The position numbers were made by a program, and so were the translations under genes. A stretch of 64,000 nt of DNA from Naegleria gruberi. Taxonomy: Eukaryota. Position 1 is the stretch's first letter; each line of letters opens with the position of its first letter. The notes under the pieces are model-generated. The model did not search any database. It was not told where the DNA came from and was given only the letters and a program-made list of their open reading frames with translations. Of this stretch, positions 26,560 through 63,694 are shown one piece after another. The stretch lies in the NCBI GenBank assembly GCA_000004985.1, contig GG738900.1; one strand, given 5' to 3'.

Positions 26560-27915
26560 TTGTGCAACCGATCAAGATCGGGTCGTGAATTTGAAGGTTG
26601 TACAGTGAATCGTATCTTTGCAAGCTTTTCTCATACATTTTCCAGTACAAATCCAAAGTTTCAAGACAATTATACTCCTCTCGATCATAGTAAATATGAA
26701 TTATACGAGTGGAAAATGTCGACCAATCAGCCACAAATTGTCATTAAGGAAGTTAGTACTGGAAAGGACTATATGACATTATTAACCATGGATGGTCGAT
26801 TGTTGTTTATGGGACAAAATACATTTGCATTGGGTTCTGTATTGAGTGGAGAAAAGCTTCCTGATTATGTAACATGTCTGGAGGAGGCTTGTGTAAAGGT
26901 AGTCAGTGGGAGAGGTGATAATGGTGTAGGAGAAACCTTTTTAGAATTGGGTAAGAAGGAGACGAGGAATTTTCTTCATGTTGGAAGTGGAATGTACTTT
27001 ATGGTAGTTCTTACGTCAGATTATAGATTGATTTCTTCTGGATCTAATGAGTGTGGACAGACAGGTGTTGGTCAAAATGCTAGTAGCATGGGAGGTTTTT
27101 CTGAATGTGTTTTCAATAAGGATTTACAAGATTCAAAGAATGAAATATTGAGAGGAATTGTTAAAATTGCATGTGGATACCAACATTGTATGATATTGAC
27201 TAGAGATGGAACAATGATTGGAACTGGGTGTTCCTACCAACGTCAATTAGGTCCAATTGAAAATGATATATCCTATGAATTTACAAAATTAGTATCTCCT
27301 GAAACGACTACTCCAATAGTAGATATTCAATGTGGATACTTTAGTAGTTCATGTATTGACGCTAATGGAATGGTATATGTAGTTGGACAAGAGAGTTACA
27401 CTCGACTCGTCGCTGCAGAGAAATGGACCAAATTACAAACTTTTATTTATGATCCAGTTCAATACATGACAATGAGTTGTTCCAATTCATTCTTTCGAAC
27501 AACAAGTGGATTAGTCTATCACAATTGGGGAAGTAATGATGACAATGAAAACAAACCATTTGAGAATTTGCAAAAATTAAGTGAGATACCTAATGTGGAA
27601 TATATATTTGGAAAGGAAAATTTCTTAGCTGTAACGGAATCTAAGGATATCTATCTCTCCACAAACTCTTCTTGTTCTGGAATTATTAAACCACCAACAT
27701 CTGATACTCGTTGGTTTGAATACAATGGCCTCAAACAACACATTCCTAAAAATGGAAGATATCAACTATTCATCGCCGATGCATTCAGCTTTTACATGTA
27801 CTTTATTCTATCCTCCAATAAGGAAGGTCACTTGAAGGATAATCTGAAAATTACACTCCAAAAAGGACAAACAGATTTTGAAAAGAATTATTTCATGGAC
27901 ATTATCATCAAGTAG
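26560..27915 (+). CDS. RCC1-like repeat protein (paralog of 60234..61655), 5' end unresolved
   Basis: ORF 26560..27915 starts at TTG and has no in-frame ATG before MSTNQ at 26716. The repeats …DGRLLFMGQNTFALG…CGYQHCMILTRDGTMIGTGCSYQRQLG…IQCGYFSSSCIDANGMVYVVGQ… carry RCC1-type GxN..GQLG motifs. It is collinear with, and about 40-45% identical to, the 60.2-kb gene. A TATAG acceptor at 26535..26539 suggests an upstream exon. Confidence 0.6.
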   Translation: MCNRSRSGREFEGCTVNRIFASFSHTFSSTNPKFQDNYTPLDHSKYELYEWKMSTNQPQIVIKEVSTGKDYMTLLTMDGRLLFMGQNTFALGSVLSGEKLPDYVTCLEEACVKVVSGRGDNGVGETFLELGKKETRNFLHVGSGMYFMVVLTSDYRLISSGSNECGQTGVGQNASSMGGFSECVFNKDLQDSKNEILRGIVKIACGYQHCMILTRDGTMIGTGCSYQRQLGPIENDISYEFTKLVSPETTTPIVDIQCGYFSSSCIDANGMVYVVGQESYTRLVAAEKWTKLQTFIYDPVQYMTMSCSNSFFRTTSGLVYHNWGSNDDNENKPFENLQKLSEIPNVEYIFGKENFLAVTESKDIYLSTNSSCSGIIKPPTSDTRWFEYNGLKQHIPKNGRYQLFIADAFSFYMYFILSSNKEGHLKDNLKITLQKGQTDFEKNYFMDIIIK

Positions 27916-38120: not shown

Positions 38121-39317
38121 TTAGAATAAGAATGAAATTAAAACAAGCAAGCAAACAATTAGGAAAGAAGCTTGCTTAATATTGGAGGAACCACTTGTTT
38201 TAACAGCTCTTCCACTGCATTGAGTTGCTTTTTGATTGACAACAGTCAATTCATTTCCATTTCTTGTCAAGATGAAAGGATTGTTAAAGATTATTGCACT
38301 CAAAGTGGTGTCAGAATTAATGTTTGAAACTTGAGCAGACATGCTTGTTGAAGAGCCACATTGACCATTCACTGGACCAGTCAAAAAGACAGTATTAGTG
38401 TTGGACTTGGTGACAGAAACACTTCCTGTCAAACAACAACATGAATTGACATCGCATGTGTCTTGAACTTTCCATGTGCCAACCCAAGCAGATGTATAAT
38501 CCACTGGGTTAGATCCAGTTTGAACATCAACACCACGACTTTGTGAATAGGTATTTCCACCAGTAGTGTAGGTTGCTTTCAATTTAGCTGAAACTGAGGA
38601 TGAAACTGTGATAGAATTTGAGAATGTAGCAACACCATTAGAAGTTGTTGCAGTTGTTGAACCTCCCAGTGTACCACTTCCTTCCCAACTCAAAGAAATA
38701 CTTTCTCCAGAAGTAGAAACTGTGTTTCCACTGGTGTCAAGTAATCTGACTGTTGTGGTGAAGGTTTGACCGCTGTTAACAGTTGTTGGAGCAGAAAGAT
38801 CCAAACCAACAACAGTACCTGTAGGAGTAGTACAACCATAAGAAACACTATACTTCAATGGACAACTCATGATTGCGTTGGTGCACTCAACAAAAAATTT
38901 GGCATTTTGTTGATCTAATCTGTATGTACCAGCATAAACGCAAGTAACAGAGCTTGCTGAAGAAGGACCATTGTAGTAACTGAAAGGAAGACCTTGTTTA
39001 TATTTTTCAAAATCAGCTTCAGAAACAGTGTAGTATTTGAAGGAGCTTCCATCAGTTGACTGAACATTAACGCTATAGGAAGATACAACTTGGCCGGTAG
39101 GACAGGTTAGAGAGAAACTAGTATAGGCATGGGCAGCAACACTTTGAGGACAAGTGCCACCCCCACATGTACATGCAATACATGAGCAGCTTTGTCTTGG
39201 GCTTCTGAACAAGTTTTGTTCCACAGCCTTGAGAGAAAGTTGAGAAGAAACTTGTTGAGCACAAGCCATTAATACAAAAAGCATAATAGCAGCTAGAATA
39301 GATTTGGTGTGAAACAT
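38121..39317 (-). CDS. Secreted Cys-rich, Ser/Thr-rich surface glycoprotein with hydrophobic C-terminus (GPI-anchor-like), paralog A
   Basis: ORF 38121..39338 starts at GTG, and the ATG at 39317 gives the signal peptide MFHTKSILAAIMLFVLMACAQQ. A Cys-rich N-module precedes S/T-rich stretches. The conserved C-terminal domain is …DYTSAWVGTWKVQDTCDVNSCCCLTGSVSVTKSNTN…GQCGSSTSMSAQVSNINSDTTLSAIIFNNPF…TRNGNELTVVNQ…CSGRAVKTS… followed by a hydrophobic tail. Confidence 0.6.
   Translation of the reverse strand: MFHTKSILAAIMLFVLMACAQQVSSQLSLKAVEQNLFRSPRQSCSCIACTCGGGTCPQSVAAHAYTSFSLTCPTGQVVSSYSVNVQSTDGSSFKYYTVSEADFEKYKQGLPFSYYNGPSSASSVTCVYAGTYRLDQQNAKFFVECTNAIMSCPLKYSVSYGCTTPTGTVVGLDLSAPTTVNSGQTFTTTVRLLDTSGNTVSTSGESISLSWEGSGTLGGSTTATTSNGVATFSNSITVSSSVSAKLKATYTTGGNTYSQSRGVDVQTGSNPVDYTSAWVGTWKVQDTCDVNSCCCLTGSVSVTKSNTNTVFLTGPVNGQCGSSTSMSAQVSNINSDTTLSAIIFNNPFILTRNGNELTVVNQKATQCSGRAVKTSGSSNIKQASFLIVCLLVLISFLF
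38181..38520. repeat. Near-identical (about 97%) 0.33-kb tract shared with 39681..40020 (3' coding halves of the two tandem paralogs)
   Basis: Direct comparison of the two stretches shows only scattered substitutions. This is consistent with a recent tandem duplication or gene conversion. Confidence 0.7.
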
Positions 39318-39372
39318 TTTTTTGTCAATGAGAGTCACTGTTCAGTTTTACTAGCTGTCACTTAATACCTTT

Positions 39373-39620: not shown

Positions 39621-40391
39621 TTAAACGAAGAGGAGAGAAATCACAACAAGCAAACAAATCAAGAAGGAAGACTTTGTGGTGAGAGAAGTATCACTTGTTT
39701 TAACAGCTCTTCCACTGCATTGAGTTGCTCTTTGATTGACAACAGTCAATTCATTTCCATTTCTTGTCAAGACGAAAGGATTGTTAAAGATTATTGCACT
39801 CAAAGTAGTGTCAGAATTAATGTTTGAAACTTGAGCAGACATGCTTGTTGAAGAGCCGCATTGACCCTTCACTGGACCAGTCAAAAAGACAGCATTGGTA
39901 TTTGACTTGGTGACAGAAACACTTCCTGTCAAACAACAACATGAATTGACATCACATGTGTCTTGAACTTTCCATGTGCCAACCCAAGCAGATGTATAAT
40001 CACCTGATGGATTATTAGAACCAATTTGGACATCAACACTGAGAGATTGTGAATAGGTTGATCCACCAGAAGTATAGGTTGCTTTCAACATGCCAGAAGT
40101 AGCAGCTGAAACTGTGATGGAAACTGAGAAGGCAGCAACACCATTAGAGAATGAAGCAACCGTTGAGCCACCCAAAGTACCACTTCCTTCCCAACTCAAA
40201 ACAACAGAACCAGAAGCTGCCATGGTGTTTCCACTAGAATCTAACATTTTGGCACTTGCAGAGAAAGTTTGGCCACTAGTAACAGTGTTTGGAACTGTCA
40301 AGCTCAAAAAAGCCAATGTGGCAGCTTGGCAGGTGCCAACAAAAGCGAGCAATGCGAGTATGACAACAAGGAATTGTTTAGTATTGAACAT
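39621..40391 (-). CDS. Secreted Ser/Thr-rich surface glycoprotein, paralog B (shorter; lacks N-terminal Cys module)
   Basis: ORF 39621..40391 with ATG at 40391 and signal peptide MFNTKQFLVVILALLAFVGTCQA. It has the same C-terminal domain as paralog A; DNA is about 97% identical over roughly 330 bp. It also ends in a hydrophobic tail. Confidence 0.6.
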   Translation of the reverse strand: MFNTKQFLVVILALLAFVGTCQAATLAFLSLTVPNTVTSGQTFSASAKMLDSSGNTMAASGSVVLSWEGSGTLGGSTVASFSNGVAAFSVSITVSAATSGMLKATYTSGGSTYSQSLSVDVQIGSNNPSGDYTSAWVGTWKVQDTCDVNSCCCLTGSVSVTKSNTNAVFLTGPVKGQCGSSTSMSAQVSNINSDTTLSAIIFNNPFVLTRNGNELTVVNQRATQCSGRAVKTSDTSLTTKSSFLICLLVVISLLFV

Positions 40392-56063: not shown

Positions 56064-58237
56064 GTGACCATGCACACATTCGTTTCCTTCTTGGTTTTGT
56101 TTCTGTTGCTTGTTATTCATCAACATGTGCAAGCCAGTTATTTAGATCTAGTTGTTTCGTCTCCTTTACTTTCGAATATTAAATCAAATGACGAAATTGT
56201 TGGTGTGAAAACATTTCTCACACTCTTTGCCATCAAGAATGAAAAGAGCAAACTGGCGAATTATCTGACAGAACTTTCTAATAATTCTTCTTTCACATCT
56301 AATTTTGCTCATGATTCGAATAGAAAATTATTAATGGAATGGCTCAAGACAAATTACATTTCAATTGGTGTAATGTCAAACCAAGTAAATTATTTAACTT
56401 CCACATTTTCACAATTCAACGTTTCCATCTATGAAGGTACAACAGTTTCGAATAATTCTCCACTGACATCTAATCATATATTTTAAAATATTTCCATCTT
56501 TCGATTCATGTCAGAAGCGAAATTACTTGGAGAAATACGATGCTGTCTTGTTAGATCCGTATGCATTTGCGTTCTTTGTGAGGTTTTACAGAGATTCGTC
56601 TAGTTTAGGTTCTTCAATGATGCAAAGTAAGAATTTTGAACCAATTCCATTGATTCCATACGAAGTGTACACTAGGAGAATGATGGAAGCAAATCCATCA
56701 GAACCAATGCAGGAATTGTTTGGTTATCAAAAATTATTGACATGTGAAAATCAACCAGATGTGTCAGATGCTCAATATTTTAGATTGCTGACAGGATACT
56801 CTAATTATTCATCCCTATATGTTGCAATTATTGAAAGAATTACTGGAAAATCATCATTATTAGCTAATTACACACTCATCAATTCGAATATTCCAGCAAT
56901 ACTTTCGTACTTTGGATAATCCGAAACTAATGGATTTTCTTCATCTTCTCTGGAAACTGTTTTACTCTCATCATCATGCTACATGTGCAAAACTTCCACA
57001 TGCGCAGGAGAAAACTTTGATCCAACCTTAGATTTTTGGATAATCCCTCAATTCGTCATTATTTTCGGCTACTTTATACTATTGTTCTCTTTTGGATTAT
57101 TCAAAAAACCATCCATGAGAAGAAGAATTGCCCTTCCCTACTGCCCAATTCTCATTCTAACCATCATGGTCATGTTCACATCTCTCTCAAGAATTTGTGT
57201 TTGCATATTTTACAATATTTCAACTTTTGTAATGATTTGGTGGGTCTTTATTTATTCAGCCACAGTGATTAGATTCTATTTCTTGAGAAATTTATATTCC
57301 CTGATTACTAGATTCCCTACTCGTGAGAAATTGATGAAAATTCTGGCATCTGAAAAGAGTGGTTTCGTTCTGACAGTTGTCTTGACATTTTTATTGGCAT
57401 TGACATTCAATTCGGCTGGAATTTACTTCTTTTTTTTAGAGAATAAGTCCACTATTGATATTTACAGAGCTGCATGGATTGTTGGTTTTATTATTTTGGG
57501 TGGATTGTTAGGTTTTCGTTGCAGTTTTGTGGGATATGATAATCCATGGAAAAACTATTCGAAAGTTTGGACTGAAACGATTCTTCTTTTTCGATGATCC
57601 ATTGTATGTTAGAGTAGACATGTTACTTTTACTCTTTCCCATTGTTATTTGCATTCTAGTTGCTGTTGGAACTGCCTCGCTCGACGTTCAACAAAAAGAA
57701 TATCAAAATGTTGGTGGAATTTTCAACACAATTTTGTGTTTCGTATTTTTGACAATGAATGGAGGAGGTGTAGTGCTGATTGAAATATACAAAAGAATTA
57801 GGTATGCAAAATCTCAAAAGACCAATTCAGCAGATGATTTGGAAAATATTTTGAAAAACGAAGATTTGTTCAATTTATTTAGAGAATATTCTGAAAAGGA
57901 GTTTAGTTTGGAGAATATTGAATTCTATTCAGTCATGTTGAAATTGAAAGTGCAGAAAGTGGTGAGTGAGAAAGAGTTGGATGAAATTGATGATACTTTC
58001 ATTAAGAATTATTCGAAATATGAAGTGAACTTACCTTCAAGTTGTAAACGAGAATTTTACAAACTCAAAGAACAAGCACAAGAGAAAACACACCAAGTTG
58101 AATACTCTGCCTTGTGGCAAGTTTTTGGAAATGATTTGGTGTTGAACATGATGGATACCTTCAGAAGATTGCAAGAAACTTCAAACTATAGTCAATGGGA
58201 ATCCGTTTCTAAATATCAGAAACACATTCATCCTTAA
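56064..58237 (+). CDS. Receptor-like protein: signal peptide + ectodomain + 7 TM helices + C-terminal RGS domain (7TM-RGS), reading frame broken into 4 ORFs
   Basis: ORF 56064..56486 has a signal peptide MTMHTFVSFLVLFLLLVIHQHVQA. ORF 56527..56919 continues the ectodomain. ORF 56983..57597 has 5 TM helices. ORF 57527..58237 has 2 more TM helices and an RGS domain (…EDLFNLFREYSEKEFSLENIEFYSVMLKLK…). A 130-nt intron (GTAAAT at 56385 to CAG at 56514) joins pieces 1 and 2 in frame. Pieces 2 and 3 share a frame but are separated by a single TAA (56917..56919). Pieces 3 and 4 differ by +1 frame between TM5 and TM6. No canonical AT-rich intron explains either break. Confidence 0.55.
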
Positions 58238-58312
58238 ATTAACTTGTATAAATTAATATTTAATTGTAATATTCGTTTGACTCATATATATATGTACAAA
58301 ATTTCATATCCA

Positions 58313-58651
58313 CTAAGCTAAATAACTTGCTTCTGCTTCGTTTTCACACGGAGTACTTTCATTTGCAGATTCTTTACAGTCACAAGCAACTTGACAACCA
58401 TTTTCATCTACCTTGTATCCGTGTGGACATGCTACAAGACAATTGTATACTCTACATGGTGCTGGATTGCAATCACAAGCTATTTGGCAACCGAATCGAT
58501 CAACCTTGTATCCATATCTACAAGGAATGAGGCAGTAAATATTTCTACACGAGCTTGTTCTATGATTTGGTGGTTTGATTGGAAAGGCAGATATCTGATG
58601 AAACCAAACAGAAAGAATGCACAGTATGAGGAGGGTTTGAAAGATTTTCAT
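58313..58651 (-). CDS. Small secreted Cys-rich protein with two antistasin-like repeats
   Basis: ORF with ATG at 58651 and signal peptide MKIFQTLLILCILSVWFHQISA. Two repeats, CLIPCRYGYKVDRFGCQIACDC and CLVACPHGYKVDENGCQVACDC, fit the antistasin-type pattern C-x3-C-x2-G-x3-D-x2-GC-x3-C-x-C. The C-terminus is acidic. Confidence 0.5.
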   Translation of the reverse strand: MKIFQTLLILCILSVWFHQISAFPIKPPNHRTSSCRNIYCLIPCRYGYKVDRFGCQIACDCNPAPCRVYNCLVACPHGYKVDENGCQVACDCKESANESTPCENEAEASYLA

Positions 58652-58764
58652 TTTGTTTAGTGCTGTGGAGAAACAGTTGAGTATTATTTGTTACAACAAG
58701 TGTATTTCCTAGTTTGGTGCCTTTCTTGGAGTGTCAACAGTACATATTTAGAAATGGGATAGAA

Positions 58765-59739
58765 TTAGTGTTGGGGAGAAGAAATAACGTCAGAAAATCC
58801 TCGTTGTTCCTTCATTTGCCTCATATGTTTAAAGAATTTGAGATTAGATTTCTTCATTATTATACATCTTTCCAAATCAAAGTTCTTAATCATTTGGTGC
58901 AGGTTGGTGAACTGCAATCTTTCAGCTGCCTGTTCAGAATTCAACATAATTCTCTGTCTGACAATTCCACTATATTCTGAAACCATTATTACATCATCAC
59001 TGAATAGACAATCAATCTTTTTACAAGCTCCACATTCCAATAGAATCCTTGCAATTTGACATTTTCCTTTCAAACAAGCAATGAATAATGGTGTTCGATT
59101 CTGTTAGAATTCAAGAGTTAAAAAGAATTAATAATATGAATGACAACTTACTCCTGGTGAACCAAATCCATCAACATTGCATCTCAATCTATACAATAAC
59201 CAATAAACTAAATCAACTTGTCCCTTTGCAACAGCAACATGTAAAGCAGAAACATTTCCATTTGGTGTATTCGTATTGATAAACTCTTTAATCTTGAGTG
59301 TCATCCAATCTCTCATTGTCTGATAACAACTATTACTCTGAACTTCTAGCAAACATTTGTAATTATTGACAAGTAAATGTGGAAGTGGATGAAAATCACC
59401 ATACTGATTCTCTATCATGGTTTGTAAATGCTCTTGAATCCATTTAGAAACAGTCTGATAAGAAGCACATTGATCATTCTTTGGAAATTCAATCCAGTAC
59501 AATCTATTGAGGTATTGCTCCAATAATTGAGTTAAACTTTTGAAAAGATTTGAATCGAATCTAATCATGGAAACTTCATCCATTGAATGTTGTTGTTGTT
59601 CTGCTTGCTGTTCCTTACTCTCAATTGCTTCTTCTTCCTCTTTCAAATCTTGAATAATGGAAATGAAATGTTTGTTGTATTCCCTCAGCAAACTTGATCG
59701 AGTTGTGATGGTATTTGGATGAATGAGTTGTAGGGCCAT
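58765..59739 (-). CDS. Ankyrin-repeat protein, 2 exons
   Basis: Model complement(join(58765..59100,59152..59739)) with a 51-nt intron (GTAAGT…CTAACAG, phase 0) lying inside an ankyrin repeat. Across the junction it reads …TPNGNVSALHVAVAKGQVDLVYWLLYRLRCNVDGFGSPG | NRTPLFIACLKGKCQIARILLECGA…. ATG is at 59739. Confidence 0.65.
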
Positions 59740-60233
59740 TTCGTGTATTTGTTCTTCTTTTTCTTTTTTGAAAATTTATGTAACATCATCTTCCAATGAG
59801 AGATTTTAAATTCAACCACCGAATATTCGTGATGATTTGTAATTAAATTAGAAAAAAAGGAAATTGGATATTGGAGAGTTATCTATTGAACATGTTTGCG
59901 TAGAGTGATTGATGATGGAGATTGGTTGTGTACGTATTAATTGTTGTTCTTTTGATGCTCGTGTGGTTTTTTCGCATTCCTTGGCTTTGGTTCATCCGAA
60001 GGAAATGATGAAGGAATTTGCTTCCATTTTGTTGTTGTTTTATTTTTTTTTATGGTTGAAGTTAAATTGTTTAACGGTTTGTGGTGGCGGGAAAATTTTT
60101 GATGTTGCTTGATGTAGATTCGAACAATATTTCCAATAGGACACAAAAAGCAACCTTAGTGTTTCCTTTCCTAGACTTTCTAGATTGAATGTCGAATCAC
60201 AAAGAAAAGTTAAACAGCAAGTAAATCAAAAAA

Positions 60234-61655
60234 ATGGGCCAAAGTGGATCAAGAAAAGGTTTGTGTTTATTATTAGAAACTAAACTGATCATTCAATCGA
60301 AAAACAGCAACAAAATCAACCAACTCCGGTTATAGACCATCACGTTCTGCTCCTTCACTTCTAGGAAGACAAGAAGTACTTTTAACTTTTGATACAGAAT
60401 TTCATTCCTTCTCTCAAGATAGTTTAGAACAAGTTTCTCAACTTGATCCGAAAGATGCTGCCACTCGAATTTTTAGATTTAAACATTTAACAGACAAAAT
60501 GACGATAAAATCAGTGAGTTCCGGAAAGAGCTTTGCTGCTCTCCTTGCAAATGATGGAAGGTAAGTGACAAATTTACAAAAAACTTTGAATTTTCGAATA
60601 ACAAAAGATTATTTGTTTGTGGAAAGTGTCCATTCCCAACCACTGGACCAGAAACAACCTCCATAACCGATACAACCGATGAAAACCTTACACGTATTTC
60701 AATTGAACTTTCTAATAAGCAAGTTGTGGATAAATTTTCGAATATTGCTTGTGGAATGTATTTCATGATGGCTATGAGTGATGATCGTTCAAATATCTTC
60801 TCTGCAGGGCAGAATGAATGTGGTCAGAGAGCAATTGGTCGAGGAGGTTCTCTCAATTTTAAAGAATGTATTTTTGAGACCACTGAAATCAAAACCAAAT
60901 TACTGAGTGGATTGGAAAAGATTTCATGTGGATATCAACATGCTATTGCCTATTCGAAAGATGGAAATCTGTATGGAACTGGATGTTCCTTTCAAAATCA
61001 ATTGGGAACAATAGATAGTGGAATTTGTTACGAGTTTAGGAAAATATCGAGACCAAAAACTGATAATCAAATAATTGATGTACAAGCTGGATTTTTCTTT
61101 AGTGTTTGTTTGGATTCTGAAGGAATGGTCTATGTGACAGGAATAAGAGCTCACTCAAATATGATTGATGCTCAAGAATGGACGAAAATGAATACCTTCA
61201 TCAATCATCCAGTTTCTTCCATGTGGATTTCATGTTCCAACGCTTTCTTCCTAACTCAAGATGGACAAGTCTATCACAATTTGAATCTAACCTCAGAGAT
61301 GGCCAATGATGAAAATCTCATTACTCTTCCAATACCTTCAGTCAAATCTATTTATGGTAAAGAATCTTACATGGCAGTCGATCAGTGGAATACAATCCAT
61401 GTGTCAGCTTCGAATGGTTCTCAAGGAGTTTCAAACACATCGAAAAATTGGTTTGAACACGAAGGTATGCGAAGACTCATCGGAAGCAAGGATGAATTGC
61501 AAATTCTTGATGCCTTTACTTTTTGTATTTTCATCAAATCATCCAATGAGGGAGTATTGAAGAATAACTTGTGTACTATTCTCAAAAAACAATTCAATAG
61601 TGATTTGCATGAAAAGTCGTACTTGTATGATATCCGATTTACATCCATGCATTAA
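60234..61655 (+). CDS. RCC1-like repeat protein with N-terminal myristoylation motif (MGQSGS), 3 exons; paralog of 26560..27915
   Basis: Model join(60234..60258,60308..60560,60608..61655), total 1326 nt. The introns are 49 nt (GTTTGT…AACAG) and 47 nt (GTAAGT…CAAAAG), both phase-checked. Exon 1 encodes MGQSGSRK. The RCC1-like repeats (…DGRLFVCGK…CGYQHAIAYSKDGNLYGTGCSFQNQLG…VQAGFFFSVCLDSEGMVYVTG…) are collinear with the 26.5-kb paralog. Confidence 0.65.
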
Positions 61656-61861
61656 ATTATCGATAATAATAATTAAAATTTCATCCTTTTTAAAATAATC
61701 AAATAATATTATTATTTAAGGGGTACCTCTGGTCGTTACGACTGTTAGGAAACGCCAAAACTTTTAAATTTTTAATGTTTCTAAAAATAAAAAAAAATAT
61801 CACAACTTCCTAGGTGAATCATCATCATCATGGGCATCATCAATAAATTATTAATTTTAAT

Positions 61862-63694
61862 TCATTTTCCACCATCATCTCCTTCTTGTTCTTGTGTTAG
61901 AGTGACACAACATTTGCACATCGGATCTCCATTACATTCTGCACATACCTCAACAGTACAATAGGGACACTTTTCTAAGTGAGTAAAGTAACTTCCGCAA
62001 TTAGAACAACATTTCGTCTTCCTTGAGGTGGGAATAATGGAACCAACATAATGTGTTTTCTTCTTCTTGATGGGTATTGTGGATTGGGTAGTGTGTTGGT
62101 TTTGTTTGTTGTTACAGTTAATACATCTGCAAGCTGTAGAACACACCATCTTACTCTTCTTGCAAGCACAAGTATTTGAATCACACCCCAAACTGCAATC
62201 ACACGATAGTCCATAAGTGGCCTCGCTCTGGGGCATAGTTTGAGATAATTCCTTGAATTTCCTCTTGTTGTTAGCTTTTTGCTTTTTGGCTTCTTCAGTA
62301 TGATGATGTTTCAATACTTTAGATCTTTTTTCATTCAACTTATTCATATTGCTCTTCCATATTTCTTCTTCTGGAATATCCAATAAATCAAATAACCTTA
62401 TAATCCAAGTTTTACCTGCATTCTTATCCAAAACTGCTTGTTGAACACGAGTTCGGAAATATCTTGTCCCTTTGATATTCTTTGAGACATATTTAATTCT
62501 CATTCTGTGAAATGATTCACACGGATTTGATGAGTAATGGTGAAAAATTGCTTTTCCTTTCAGAACCAAGTTGTTTAACTTTTCTTTTAAATACTTAATC
62601 ACAAATGAATGGCGTTTTTCAGATAGCCATAGCTTATTGGGAGTTTTATGGTTTGGATCTTTAAACGGGCATCCCTGTGAGCAACCATCATGTTTGTTGC
62701 ATAAATGATTTGGAATGTTCTTTAACCAAGATTGTAATTCATCAAGAGAAGTTGCTTTAGAAATAAATTTGCTAACATATGCATTAATTCTAGGAGCCAA
62801 TCTCTTCAATAATGCTTTGTCACCACGACGAAACAAACCTGATGGTTTCATTAATGATTTGTAGAGGTTTTTTCTAATATGATTAATATCCAAATAGGAT
62901 GTTACATTCGGATATTGATCAACAATATGTTTCAATGTACTACTATCCTCATCATGAATGACACATGAGATATTAATGTTATTGCTCTTCATATCTGAAC
63001 AAAACTGTTTCACTGACTCTCCTTCCATTGTCTTTGAACTTCCATGAAACATCCCAGTTTTGCAATTAATAATATCACTTGAATCTCTACAAGAACGACA
63101 CTTCTCAATCACTTTGTAATAAACAATTTTAGAAGTAGTGGCATCAATAACAACAAGAGCACCATTTGATGATTCTCGCTTATGTCCCCATCCAAAGTCT
63201 ATCATTATTATTAATCCATTTTGTGATTTCTTTGCAGCTTCTTGCAAATCATCAGCTACCTGCTTTACGGAGAGTATTTCTATGGCAATAGAAAATGTTT
63301 CTAGGATATTGTAGAATGCAGATAATGAAAATGGTTTGATATTATTCAATAAAAGAAGTTGGCTGTATGTATCATAATTATGTCCAAGTATTAAACATGA
63401 TAAAACAAATCGGAAGGCTGTAAAATTGGGCATATTAGAAACTCCACCACTGTCCCATTTGATTTCCTTATGACAATTACTACATGTTATTGTTGCAATT
63501 AGTTGTCCACCAATAGTATGATGTGATGAAATTGTCAGTGATGATTTTGAGCAATTTGAGCAAGCAGCGTTCTCCAAAAGTAAGCTCAGATTGTTTGTAT
63601 TACATAAAAAAGCTTTTTTAAATTTAATTTTTTTTTTAGATTTTGATGACTTACAACAATCATTTGGTTGGAATTTTGCACTACTTCTCAACAC
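61862..63694 (-). CDS. Transposase-like protein: N-terminal C2C2-type zinc finger, RNase-H-like core candidate, C-terminal CXC (tesmin/TSO1-like) Cys cluster
   Basis: ORF 61862..63694 (610 aa) starts at GTG, and the true start is undetermined. The N-terminus is CSNCSKSS…(22 aa)…CSNCHKEIKW. The middle …LIIMIDFGWGHKRESSNGALVVIDATTSKIVYYKV… resembles a DDE/RNase-H-fold strand pattern. The C-terminus CDCSLGCDSNTCACKKSKMVCSTACRCINC fits a CXC domain, with further C-x2-C clusters at the very C-terminus. Such CXC clusters occur in some eukaryotic DNA transposases (KDZ/Plavaka-type) but also in host proteins. The family call is tentative. No terminal inverted repeats are visible before the window ends at 64000. 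Confidence 0.35.
   Translation of the reverse strand: MLRSSAKFQPNDCCKSSKSKKKIKFKKAFLCNTNNLSLLLENAACSNCSKSSLTISSHHTIGGQLIATITCSNCHKEIKWDSGGVSNMPNFTAFRFVLSCLILGHNYDTYSQLLLLNNIKPFSLSAFYNILETFSIAIEILSVKQVADDLQEAAKKSQNGLIIMIDFGWGHKRESSNGALVVIDATTSKIVYYKVIEKCRSCRDSSDIINCKTGMFHGSSKTMEGESVKQFCSDMKSNNINISCVIHDEDSSTLKHIVDQYPNVTSYLDINHIRKNLYKSLMKPSGLFRRGDKALLKRLAPRINAYVSKFISKATSLDELQSWLKNIPNHLCNKHDGCSQGCPFKDPNHKTPNKLWLSEKRHSFVIKYLKEKLNNLVLKGKAIFHHYSSNPCESFHRMRIKYVSKNIKGTRYFRTRVQQAVLDKNAGKTWIIRLFDLLDIPEEEIWKSNMNKLNEKRSKVLKHHHTEEAKKQKANNKRKFKELSQTMPQSEATYGLSCDCSLGCDSNTCACKKSKMVCSTACRCINCNNKQNQHTTQSTIPIKKKKTHYVGSIIPTSRKTKCCSNCGSYFTHLEKCPYCTVEVCAECNGDPMCKCCVTLTQEQEGDDGGK

What the first reader, a model, noticed from the sequence alone, without database searches (positions are those of the whole stretch)
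56064..58237. 7TM-RGS receptor-like gene whose reading frame is broken three times (one plausible intron, one lone in-frame TAA, one +1 shift between TM5 and TM6)
Four consecutive same-strand ORFs together encode a signal peptide, an ectodomain, seven TM helices and a canonical RGS domain. This architecture combines a GPCR-like sensor with its own GAP and is known from plant AtRGS1-type proteins. Only the first junction can be explained by a canonical 130-nt intron (56385..56514). The second junction is a single TAA codon in an otherwise continuous frame (56917..56919). The third needs a +1 frame change with no AT-rich GT..AG intron available. The gene may be a recently decayed pseudogene, may use atypical splicing, or the assembly may have errors. 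If intact, a self-regulating 7TM-RGS module is biologically interesting in this lineage.
Basis: partly seen in the sequence, partly recalled or inferred. Interest (0 to 1): 0.6.

Follow-up and report, generated by a model that had tools for sequence, protein, structure and literature searches.

The report
Broken Naegleria 7TM-RGS receptor gene copy
This is one copy of a large, already known family of Naegleria membrane receptors that carry their own G-protein "off switch"; this copy is broken by two one-base frameshifts and a stop codon and is most likely a recently dead pseudogene.

Summary
The window is Naegleria gruberi NEG-M. The four ORFs at 56064-58237 are real. Together they encode a signal peptide, an ectodomain, seven TM helices and an RGS domain. 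They align end to end with intact paralogs (45-48% identity) and with a 44-member Heterolobosea family profile.

Both of its ends are homologous to coding sequence in the paralogs, including a conserved Cys. A +1 frameshift model scores 15 bits better than the spliced model. The locus therefore carries three lesions: a 1-nt insertion near 56481-56488, TAA at 56917-19, and a 1-nt insertion at 57511-57526 inside TM5. No GT..AG intron removes the TAA or the second frameshift without deleting conserved residues.

Apart from the lesions, 57 of 62 family-conserved residues are intact, so the decay is very recent. GenBank annotates only the last 205 aa (NAEGRDRAFT_72875).

Best reading: a young pseudogene or null allele (about 0.7). 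Assembly error is the main rival (about 0.17). An independent strain contig ends exactly at the second frameshift and may lack the extra C.

7TM-RGS proteins are already known and biochemically characterised in Naegleria, so interest is low. A side result is that the family ectodomain has a periplasmic-binding-protein-like fold.

The parts
56070..56138 (+). Start codon and signal peptide (MHTFVSFLVLFLLLVIHQHVQAS)
   Evidence: Hydropathy peak at aa 4-22. Full-length relatives (P0180, P0028, P0029, P0031 and others) start with similar signal peptides.
56139..56976 (+). Ectodomain, interrupted by fs1 and the TAA. It is homologous to the periplasmic-binding-protein-like ectodomain of the family.
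56385..56514 (+).
   Evidence: GTAAAT...TGTCAG is present. Both ends are homologous to paralog coding sequence. The spliced model scores 10-15 bits below the frameshift model. Two inferred introns in the window have GTAAGT donors.
56467..56486 (+). Frameshift 1 (frame 0 to frame 1). The best placement is one extra base in TTTTAAAA (56481-56488). The frame-0 stop TAA is at 56484-86.
   Evidence: Frame 1 is open only from 56467 and frame 0 stops at 56484-86. Skipping T56484 gives 'SNHIFKIFPSFDSC', which aligns without a gap to P0180 'SSSYFSIYPQVDMC'. There is no AG acceptor between 56446 and 56512 (reading).
56917..56919 (+). In-frame TAA nonsense codon in a variable ectodomain loop
   Evidence: The paralogs are colinear on both sides. 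Every in-phase GT/GC..AG candidate that removes it also deletes the conserved CxxC motif and/or TM1.
56977..57003 (+). Conserved Cys-rich juxtamembrane motif CYMCKTSTC
   Evidence: These Cys columns are conserved in 34-40 of 44 family members and kept here.
57040..57787 (+). Seven-TM domain (TM1 57040-57096 through TM7 57731-57787), with frameshift 2 inside TM5
57511..57526 (+). Frameshift 2 (frame 1 to frame 2), a one-base insertion within GGTTTTCGTTGCAGTT. C57517 is the candidate extra base.
   Evidence: Frame 2 has TAG at 57509-11. Homology in frame 2 starts at 57515 and homology in frame 1 ends by 57531. Removing one base gives 'GGLLGFVAVLWD', with a TM5 as long as in P0001. The independent strain contig L001 reads TT-GTTGCAG at its end where the window reads TTTTCGTTGCAG.
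57595..57597 (+). Premature TGA that ends the out-of-frame tail of ORF3
57620..58237 (+). The only annotated gene model at the locus: NAEGRDRAFT_72875 / XP_002672115.1 / D2VV33, 205 aa (TM6, TM7 and RGS)
   Evidence: P0040 is identical to the window translation from ATG 57620.
57839..58225 (+). RGS domain

Best explanation
The locus is a recently inactivated paralog (a pseudogene, or a null allele in the sequenced NEG-M clone) of a Heterolobosea-specific receptor family. The family architecture is: signal peptide, solute-binding-protein-like ectodomain, Cys-rich stalk, GPCR-fold 7TM domain and cytoplasmic RGS domain. By analogy with characterised Naegleria and plant 7TM-RGS proteins, an intact member would sit in the plasma membrane, sense an extracellular small molecule through the ectodomain, and tune the GTPase-accelerating activity or location of its RGS domain towards Galpha subunits. 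That functional step is inferred, not shown. In this copy three independent mutations destroy the reading frame: a 1-nt insertion in TTTTAAAA at 56481-56488, a nonsense TAA at 56917-19, and a 1-nt insertion at 57511-57526 within TM5. Translation from the first ATG would stop after 138 residues of ectodomain. The rest of the sequence is still as well conserved as in working paralogs, so inactivation is very young, roughly 1% neutral divergence by my estimate.
For: The organism and locus are identified by exact matches to N. gruberi NEG-M proteins. The family HMM matches four frame segments colinearly. The lesion-corrected 721-aa protein aligns end to end with NAEGRDRAFT_73295 (45.4%), 70688 (48.3%) and XP_002678468 (47.4%). 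The frameshift model beats the intron model, 640.7 against 625.3 bits. No in-phase GT/GC..AG intron removes the TAA or fs2 without deleting residues that are colinear and conserved in paralogs. 57 of 62 family-conserved positions are kept, within the 53-61 range of full-length intact paralog models. The annotators could only build a 205-aa model from the last ORF. Elsewhere in the window 44.6 kb lies in 29 uninterrupted ORFs of at least 250 aa, one of them 8.6 kb long, so the assembly is not generally error-prone. Against a 98.6%-identical independent strain, the neighbouring genes show 10 synonymous to 2 nonsynonymous changes plus one change in a terminal stop codon, whereas the RGS ORF shows 1 to 2. 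The family is large, so loss of one copy is cheap (244 phmmer hits, 44 at E<=1e-30; 229 RGS proteins in N. gruberi, PMC3971589).
Against: No read-level or transcript data could be reached, so the lesions rest on one 2010 Sanger assembly. Near-perfect conservation apart from the lesions is also what an assembly artefact would look like. The only independent sequence (L001) ends exactly at frameshift 2. Its last two bases fit a version without C57517, which would mean either a strain difference or an error in the NEG-M consensus. The 1:2 synonymous to nonsynonymous count is not significant (my hypergeometric calculation, p about 0.15).
Confidence: 0.7

Rival explanations
1. Assembly or base-calling artefact: the real NEG-M gene is intact, and the three lesions are consensus errors in a locally poorly covered or haplotype-mixed stretch of the Sanger assembly.
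For: Apart from the lesions the sequence is as conserved as functional paralogs. Both frameshifts lie at or next to T runs. The independent strain contig L001 reads TT before GTTGCAG where the window has TC, as expected if C57517 is spurious.
Against: It needs three separate errors 433 and 600 nt apart. Meanwhile 44.6 kb of long ORFs in the same window, including one of 8.6 kb, show none. One lesion is a substitution to a stop codon and one is a C inserted outside a homopolymer, neither of which is a typical Sanger homopolymer error. The L001 comparison shows indels only in non-coding DNA, so coding consensus quality appears high. T runs are everywhere in this locus (28 runs of at least 4 T in 2.2 kb), so adjacency to one means little.
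Confidence: 0.17
2. One reading: 56385-56514 is a real 130-nt spliceosomal intron, and only the TAA and the second frameshift are lesions. The intron may have been recruited after the frameshift arose.
For: GTAAAT...TGTCAG is in phase and joins the two ORFs cleanly. The length is similar to the two introns inferred in the window, about 70-110 nt. The annotated model of paralog 70688 starts just after the equivalent position, which could reflect an intron there.
Against: Both ends of the segment are homologous to coding sequence of full-length relatives, and the segment encodes a Cys conserved in 39 of 44 members. The spliced product scores 10-15 bits lower against two family HMMs. The donor lacks the +5 G seen in both inferred local introns. 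In-phase GT..AG pairs are abundant by chance in this AT-rich DNA, with dozens found at the other junction.
Confidence: 0.1
3. Recoding: the gene is functional and is read through by two programmed +1 ribosomal frameshifts and stop-codon readthrough.
For: Both shifts are +1 and can be written as a P-site TTT that re-pairs one base downstream: ATA TTT|T AAA with a TAA in the A site, and GGT TTT|C GTT. Conservation is otherwise intact.
Against: It needs three independent recoding events in one gene. The intact paralogs need none. The second site has no stop or rare codon in the A site (CGT is the second most used Arg codon, 12%). T runs are ubiquitous in the locus. TAA is the normal stop in this window (9 of 12 sampled genes).
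Confidence: 0.02
4. Only the annotated 205-aa product (TM6, TM7 and RGS, from ATG 57620) is made, and it works as a short membrane-anchored RGS protein. The upstream part is dead.
For: This ORF is the one in GenBank. It keeps an RGS domain scoring above the Pfam threshold with the contact motifs. RGS proteins with fewer TM helices exist in many lineages (PMC3971589).
Against: The model is an unnamed 'predicted protein' with no accessible transcript support. There is no separate promoter evidence. The ORF is simply the tail of a colinear 7TM-RGS gene. The two nonsynonymous changes out of three differences from the sister strain do not suggest strong constraint.
Confidence: 0.06

Closest known systems
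NAEGRDRAFT_73295 (683 aa), NAEGRDRAFT_70688 (561 aa) and XP_002678468 (499 aa), N. gruberi 'RGS domain-containing proteins'
   Same: They are colinear over the whole length at 45-48% identity. They share the ectodomain motifs (IVGV.., YDA.LLDPY.F..YVRFYRD, PLIPYEVY), the CYMCxTxxC stalk, seven TM helices, the FFFFDDPxYxRxD loop and the RGS domain.
   Different: Those gene models have open reading frames, whereas this copy has two frameshifts and a nonsense codon. Two of the three models lack the N-terminus, probably through mis-annotation.
Naegleria fowleri 7TM RGS proteins (Bosch et al. 2022, J Biol Chem, PMC9283941)
   Same: Same genus-level system: a 7TM domain with a C-terminal RGS. Recombinant RGS domains from three of these proteins act as GAPs on Galpha subunits, including self-activating ones. 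N. fowleri has 28 such genes.
   Different: The ectodomains described there are EGF-like, lectin and GPS. The family here has a periplasmic-binding-protein-like ectodomain. Orthology to any of the four proteins tested there was not examined. This copy is disrupted.
Arabidopsis AtRGS1
   Same: Overall logic: a 7TM sensor fused to a cytoplasmic RGS GAP that regulates Galpha (established knowledge; PMC9283941, PMC8584482).
   Different: To my knowledge AtRGS1 has no signal peptide or large ectodomain. Homology of the 7TM parts was not tested because the AFDB library was unavailable. The resemblance is architectural, and common descent was not shown.
Class C GPCRs (mGluR, CaSR, TAS1R, GABA-B)

Membership tests
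7TM-RGS receptor-GAPs (AtRGS1-type architecture; Naegleria 7TM RGS) | C-terminal RGS domain above the family threshold | tested here: met
   Pfam PF00615 at 34.8 bits against a cut-off of 23.9, E 2.4e-8.
7TM-RGS receptor-GAPs (AtRGS1-type architecture; Naegleria 7TM RGS) | Galpha-contact motifs of the RGS fold (EFSxEN in helix 3/4; the Asn of 'EVN'; D..R in the last helices) | tested here: met
   The alignment to human RGS10 shows KEFSLENIEFY against KEFSEENVLFW and YEVNL against SQVNV. DTFRRL is retained. The assignment of these as contact residues rests on my knowledge of RGS4-Galpha structures.
7TM-RGS receptor-GAPs (AtRGS1-type architecture; Naegleria 7TM RGS) | Seven TM helices upstream of the RGS, with topology N-out / RGS-in | tested here: met
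   [not shown]
7TM-RGS receptor-GAPs (AtRGS1-type architecture; Naegleria 7TM RGS) | One continuous reading frame able to produce the fused protein | tested here: not met
   Two +1 frameshifts and one TAA. No intron solution exists for the second and third breaks.
7TM-RGS receptor-GAPs (AtRGS1-type architecture; Naegleria 7TM RGS) | GAP activity on a cognate Galpha | not testable with these tools
   This needs biochemistry. It was shown for RGS domains of three N. fowleri 7TM RGS proteins (PMC9283941).
7TM-RGS receptor-GAPs (AtRGS1-type architecture; Naegleria 7TM RGS) | Homology of the 7TM region to that of AtRGS1 | not tested
   The AFDB fold library was unavailable, and no AtRGS1 sequence was at hand.
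Heterolobosean PBP-like / 7TM / RGS family (NAEGRDRAFT_73295 group) | Colinear full-length match to a family profile built without this locus | tested here: met
   HMM positions 7-102, 120-264, 270-473 and 468-707 are matched in order. The corrected protein scores 640.7 bits.
Heterolobosean PBP-like / 7TM / RGS family (NAEGRDRAFT_73295 group) | Family-conserved residues retained | tested here: met
   57 of 62 columns with at least 75% conservation are retained, against 53-61 in full-length intact paralog models.
Heterolobosean PBP-like / 7TM / RGS family (NAEGRDRAFT_73295 group) | Ectodomain with a type II periplasmic-binding-protein fold | tested here: inconclusive
   [not shown]
Pseudogene | Frame-disrupting lesions relative to intact homologs | tested here: met
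   Three lesions.
Pseudogene | Lesions present in independent reads of the same strain | not testable with these tools
   No read archive was accessible. Exact-protein look-ups of all ORF variants found nothing.
Pseudogene | Relaxed selective constraint | tested here: inconclusive
   1 synonymous to 2 nonsynonymous changes here, against 10 to 2 plus one stop-codon change in the neighbours. There are too few sites.
Spliceosomal intron (56385-56514) | GT..AG borders in the right phase | tested here: met
   GTAAAT...CAG, 130 nt, joining frame 0 to frame 1.
Spliceosomal intron (56385-56514) | Not homologous to coding sequence of relatives; removal improves or preserves the fit to the family | tested here: not met
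   Both ends align to paralog coding sequence, and removal costs 10-15 bits.
Programmed +1 ribosomal frameshift | Slippery P-site codon plus a slow A-site codon or stimulator, conserved in homologs | tested here: not met
   Site 1 has TTT-TAA, but site 2 has a common A-site codon (CGT, 12% of Arg codons). The homologs are encoded in one frame.

The most novel reading that the evidence does not exclude
The gene is not dead. A full-length receptor would be made by two programmed +1 ribosomal frameshifts at U-UUU-N sites (ATA TTT|T AAA at a TAA stop, and GGT TTT|C GTT) plus readthrough of the TAA at 56917. That would be the first recoded gene of this kind in a heterolobosean. A milder but likelier variant (about 0.3): the lesions are private to the axenic laboratory clone NEG-M, and wild strains keep a working receptor whose solute-binding-protein-type ectodomain controls an RGS GAP, a 7TM-RGS subtype I did not find described in the papers read.
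Probability: 0.02. Interest if true: 0.75.

Novelty: new member of a known kind. Interest (0 to 1): 0.17.

Why it matters
It matters little for biology at large. It adds one decayed copy to a very large, already characterised receptor family. Three practical points follow. (1) The GenBank model NAEGRDRAFT_72875 (205 aa) is the tail of a disrupted 721-codon gene and should be flagged as a pseudogene fragment. (2) It is a warning that an in-phase GT..AG pair in AT-rich DNA is not evidence of an intron when paralogs show the segment is coding. (3) If the lesions prove specific to the axenic NEG-M clone, the locus would be a small example of sensory-receptor loss during laboratory domestication. 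The periplasmic-binding-protein-like ectodomain of this subfamily suggests small-molecule ligands for some Naegleria 7TM-RGS receptors, which could guide de-orphanisation of intact paralogs.

Tried and rejected
1. I enumerated every GT/GC..AG pair that could bridge the TAA (length divisible by 3) or the second frame change (length 3n+1). All of them delete paralog-conserved residues, except implausibly short 13-40-nt candidates that shorten TM5. Rejected.

2. An alternative 94-nt intron (56421-56514, donor GTTTCC) scores 6 bits below the frameshift model in the larger HMM and removes the conserved Cys. Rejected.

3. I considered an alternative genetic code (TAA as sense). It is rejected because TAA ends 9 of 12 sampled genes in the window, and this gene itself ends with TAA.

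4. I searched for independent sequence over the lesions.
- Exact-protein look-ups of ORF1-4 with several start choices found nothing.
- The histidine kinase neighbour has no near-identical ENA variant.
- A peptide-pattern scan of JGI metagenomes found no relative.
- Only L001 was recovered, and it stops at 57516.

5. The search for homologous proteins gave one hit in the first search and never returned the identical 205-aa model P0040. Absences from that tool were therefore not used as evidence.

6. The gene-position index does not seem to hold the N. gruberi NCBI record, so the paralog DNA and its exon structure could not be examined.

7. The AFDB fold library was unavailable, so there is no structural comparison with AtRGS1.

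8. A profile search of the ectodomain against PDB sequences found nothing meaningful. Only the fold comparison was informative.
Full report
**Where the window comes from.**
Six long ORFs of the window are letter-for-letter identical to GenBank proteins of Naegleria gruberi strain NEG-M on a 312,004-bp scaffold. Examples are XP_002672102 and XP_002672160. The DNA is 32-38% G+C and has no N. Genes are dense, and 44.6 kb of the 64 kb lies in 29 uninterrupted ORFs of at least 250 aa, one of them 8.6 kb long. Two introns inferred from conserved protein motifs, in a MAP kinase gene and an ABC transporter gene, are about 70-110 nt long and both start with GTAAGT.

**The observation.**
The four same-strand ORFs exist as described:
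- 56064-56486, frame 0
- 56527-56919, frame 1
- 56983-57597, frame 1
- 57527-58237, frame 2

The other stated features also hold. GTAAAT lies at 56385 and CAG ends at 56514. A lone TAA sits at 56917-19. ORF3 stops at TGA 57595-97, and the gene ends with TAA at 58235-37. The last ORF carries a Pfam RGS domain (34.8 bits, cut-off 23.9).

**What the locus is.**
A phmmer search with the closest intact relative against 1.84 billion representative proteins found 244 relatives, 44 of them at E<=1e-30. Many are 700-790 aa long. The named ones come from N. gruberi (several paralogs), N. lovaniensis and Willaertia magna. The rest come from environmental assemblies.

I built a profile from 37 long members, none from this locus, and ran it against the three forward frames of the region. 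It hits four segments in strict order:

| Frame | Window coordinates | HMM positions | E-value |
|---|---|---|---|
| 0 | 56082-56414 | 7-102 | 7.7e-8 |
| 1 | 56500-56910 | 120-264 | 2.1e-19 |
| 1 | 56926-57531 | 270-473 | 1.3e-55 |
| 2 | 57515-58225 | 468-707 | 5e-83 |

The locus is therefore one gene of this family read in three frames.

**The first junction is not an intron.**
The frame-0 match runs 30 nt past the proposed donor, and the frame-1 match starts 15 nt before the proposed acceptor. The full-length N. gruberi paralog NAEGRDRAFT_73295 (683 aa) reads '...TIGTIRDYTPFLSNYFKYSNLSLSHGLSNSILSSSYFSIYPQVDMCQRRDYFTRYDAFLLDPY'. The window reads '...SIGVMSNQVNYLTSTFSQFNVSIYEGTTVSNNSPLTSNHIF' in frame 0, followed by 'KIFPSFDSCQKRNYLEKYDAVLLDPY' in frame 1. 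Skipping one base in TTTTAAAA (56481-88) joins the two without a gap around the switch point.

The Cys in 'FDSC' is conserved in 39 of 44 relatives. Against two family HMMs the three models score as follows:

| Model | 44-member HMM (bits) | 37-member HMM (bits) |
|---|---|---|
| Frameshift-corrected | 640.7 | 570.8 |
| 130-nt intron | 625.3 | 560.3 |
| 94-nt intron | 634.4 | 570.2 |

There is no AG between 56446 and 56512, so no shorter intron can keep 'FPSFDSC' (reading). I conclude that junction 1 is a +1 frameshift. A cryptic splice of the 130 nt cannot be excluded without RNA data, and I give it about 0.1. It would not rescue the gene in any case.

**The second and third junctions.**
The paralogs are colinear across both. 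The TAA lies in a variable loop of the ectodomain. Every in-phase GT/GC..AG candidate that removes it also removes the conserved CYMCxTxxC motif and/or TM1.

The frame-1 to frame-2 switch must lie between the frame-2 TAG (57509-11) and 'VLWDMI' (from 57524). Removing one base, for example C57517, gives 'AAWIVGFIILGGLLGFVAVLWD', the same length as TM5 of NAEGRDRAFT_70688. The only intron candidates that keep the conserved loop are 13-40 nt long and shorten TM5.

**The corrected product.**
The lesion-corrected CDS encodes 721 aa. It joins 56070-56483, 56485-56916, the TAA, 56920-57516 and 57518-58237. The product is 45.4%, 48.3% and 47.4% identical to the three closest N. gruberi paralogs.

Its features, in order:
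- a signal peptide
- an ectodomain of about 280 aa with six N-glycosylation sequons
- the Cys-rich stalk
- seven hydrophobic segments, with 5, 5 and 6 K/R in the three cytoplasmic loops against 1 and 1 in the two resolved extracellular loops
- the RGS domain

It keeps 57 of 62 family-conserved positions. Full-length intact paralog models keep 53-61. The RGS domain keeps the EFSxEN and EVN motifs.

**Structure of the family.**

**How an intact member would work (inferred).**
By analogy with AtRGS1 and with the N. fowleri 7TM RGS proteins, ligand binding outside would change the access or activity of the RGS towards Galpha-GTP. Isolated RGS domains from three of the N. fowleri proteins accelerate GTP hydrolysis on Galpha subunits, including self-activating ones (PMC9283941). 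In this copy translation from the first ATG ends at 56484-86 after 138 residues, so none of that machinery can be made as one protein.

**Real lesions or artefact?**

In favour of real lesions:
- There are three events 433 and 600 nt apart in one gene, while the rest of the window has long intact ORFs.
- One is a nonsense substitution, and one is a C inserted outside a homopolymer.
- An independent ENA contig (L001, assembly ERZ929261) is 98.6% identical to window 57518-61710. All 9 of its indels fall in non-coding DNA. The coding differences in the three neighbouring genes are 10 synonymous, 2 nonsynonymous and 1 in a terminal stop codon. So both assemblies appear accurate in genes.
- The family is very large, so one copy is dispensable (PMC3971589).

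In favour of an artefact or a strain-specific change:
- Conservation is otherwise perfect.
- L001 ends exactly at the second frameshift. Its last bases read TT-GTTGCAG where the window has TTTTC-GTTGCAG. This is either loss of C57517, which restores the frame (GGT TTT GTT GCA = G F V A), or a C>T change. Two bases cannot decide between them.

In the RGS ORF the two strains differ by 1 synonymous and 2 nonsynonymous changes. That hints at relaxed constraint but is not significant. With one nonsense and two indels in 2.2 kb, my rough estimate of neutral divergence since inactivation is about 1%. That is the same order as the divergence between the two strains, so the lesions may well be polymorphic. 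I put real lesions at about 0.7, an artefact at about 0.17, and the rest on minor alternatives.

**Annotation status.**
GenBank holds only a 205-aa 'predicted protein' for this locus: NAEGRDRAFT_72875, XP_002672115.1, D2VV33. It starts at ATG 57620 and is identical to the window. It is the tail (TM6, TM7 and RGS) of the disrupted gene.

**Comparison with what is known, and novelty.**
7TM-RGS proteins are known from plants, Trichomonas, many other protists and Naegleria itself. N. gruberi has 229 RGS-domain proteins (PMC3971589). N. fowleri has 28 7TM RGS proteins, four of which were taken into RGS-domain GAP and binding assays (PMC9283941).

The locus meets the sequence criteria of the family but fails the criterion of an intact frame. 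I file it as a disrupted new member of a known kind. The binding-protein-like ectodomain is not among the ectodomains listed in PMC9283941 (EGF-like, lectin, GPS). It may be an undescribed subtype, but I could search only open-access papers.

**Verdict.**
This is most likely an ordinary young pseudogene in a huge receptor family, so interest is low.

Noticed in passing
window 58313-58651 (-): A small secreted Cys-rich protein (NAEGRDRAFT_72876, 112 aa) with two Antistasin-family repeats (Pfam PF02822, E 5.7e-13). To my knowledge this domain is mainly known from leeches and other animals, so finding it in an amoeboflagellate is mildly unexpected.
   Followed up: partly
L001 1-4335 (= window 57516-61850, reverse orientation): A contig of an ENA 'metagenome' assembly (ERZ929261, run ERR1078381, PRJEB11402) is 98.6% identical to N. 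gruberi NEG-M, so that sample contains a close Naegleria strain. All 9 indels are in non-coding DNA. The contig ends exactly at the second frameshift of the target gene, and its terminal two bases differ from the window (TT against TC).
   Followed up: partly
P0001 (NAEGRDRAFT_70688) and P0026 (XP_002678468), not in the window: The two closest paralog models lack the signal peptide and the first 110-190 aa that NAEGRDRAFT_73295 and other family members have. Model 70688 starts right after the position equivalent to frameshift 1. These are either truncated gene models or further damaged copies. Their DNA could not be fetched.
   Followed up: no
[not shown]
   Followed up: partly
window 38121-39338 (-) and 39621-40391 (-): Two adjacent genes encode secreted Ser/Thr-rich proteins whose C-terminal stretch of about 200 aa is nearly identical (…DYTSAWVGTWKVQDTCDVNSCCCLTGSVSVTKSNTN…). 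This looks like a recent tandem duplication. There is no Pfam match for the longer one.
   Followed up: no
window 26560-27915 (+) and 60726-61655 (+): Two RCC1-repeat genes in the same window share long similar stretches, so they are dispersed paralogs about 33 kb apart.
   Followed up: no
window 61862-63694 (-): A 610-aa ORF, Cys-rich at both ends (many CxxC pairs), has no Pfam match at E<=0.001. Its function is unknown, and it might be a mobile-element-derived gene.
   Followed up: no
tool behaviour (against 25, 28): The word-indexed protein search never returned the 205-aa GenBank protein that is identical to part of the query. The exhaustive phmmer search did return it. The first search, whose query contained an X, returned a single hit.
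   Followed up: partly
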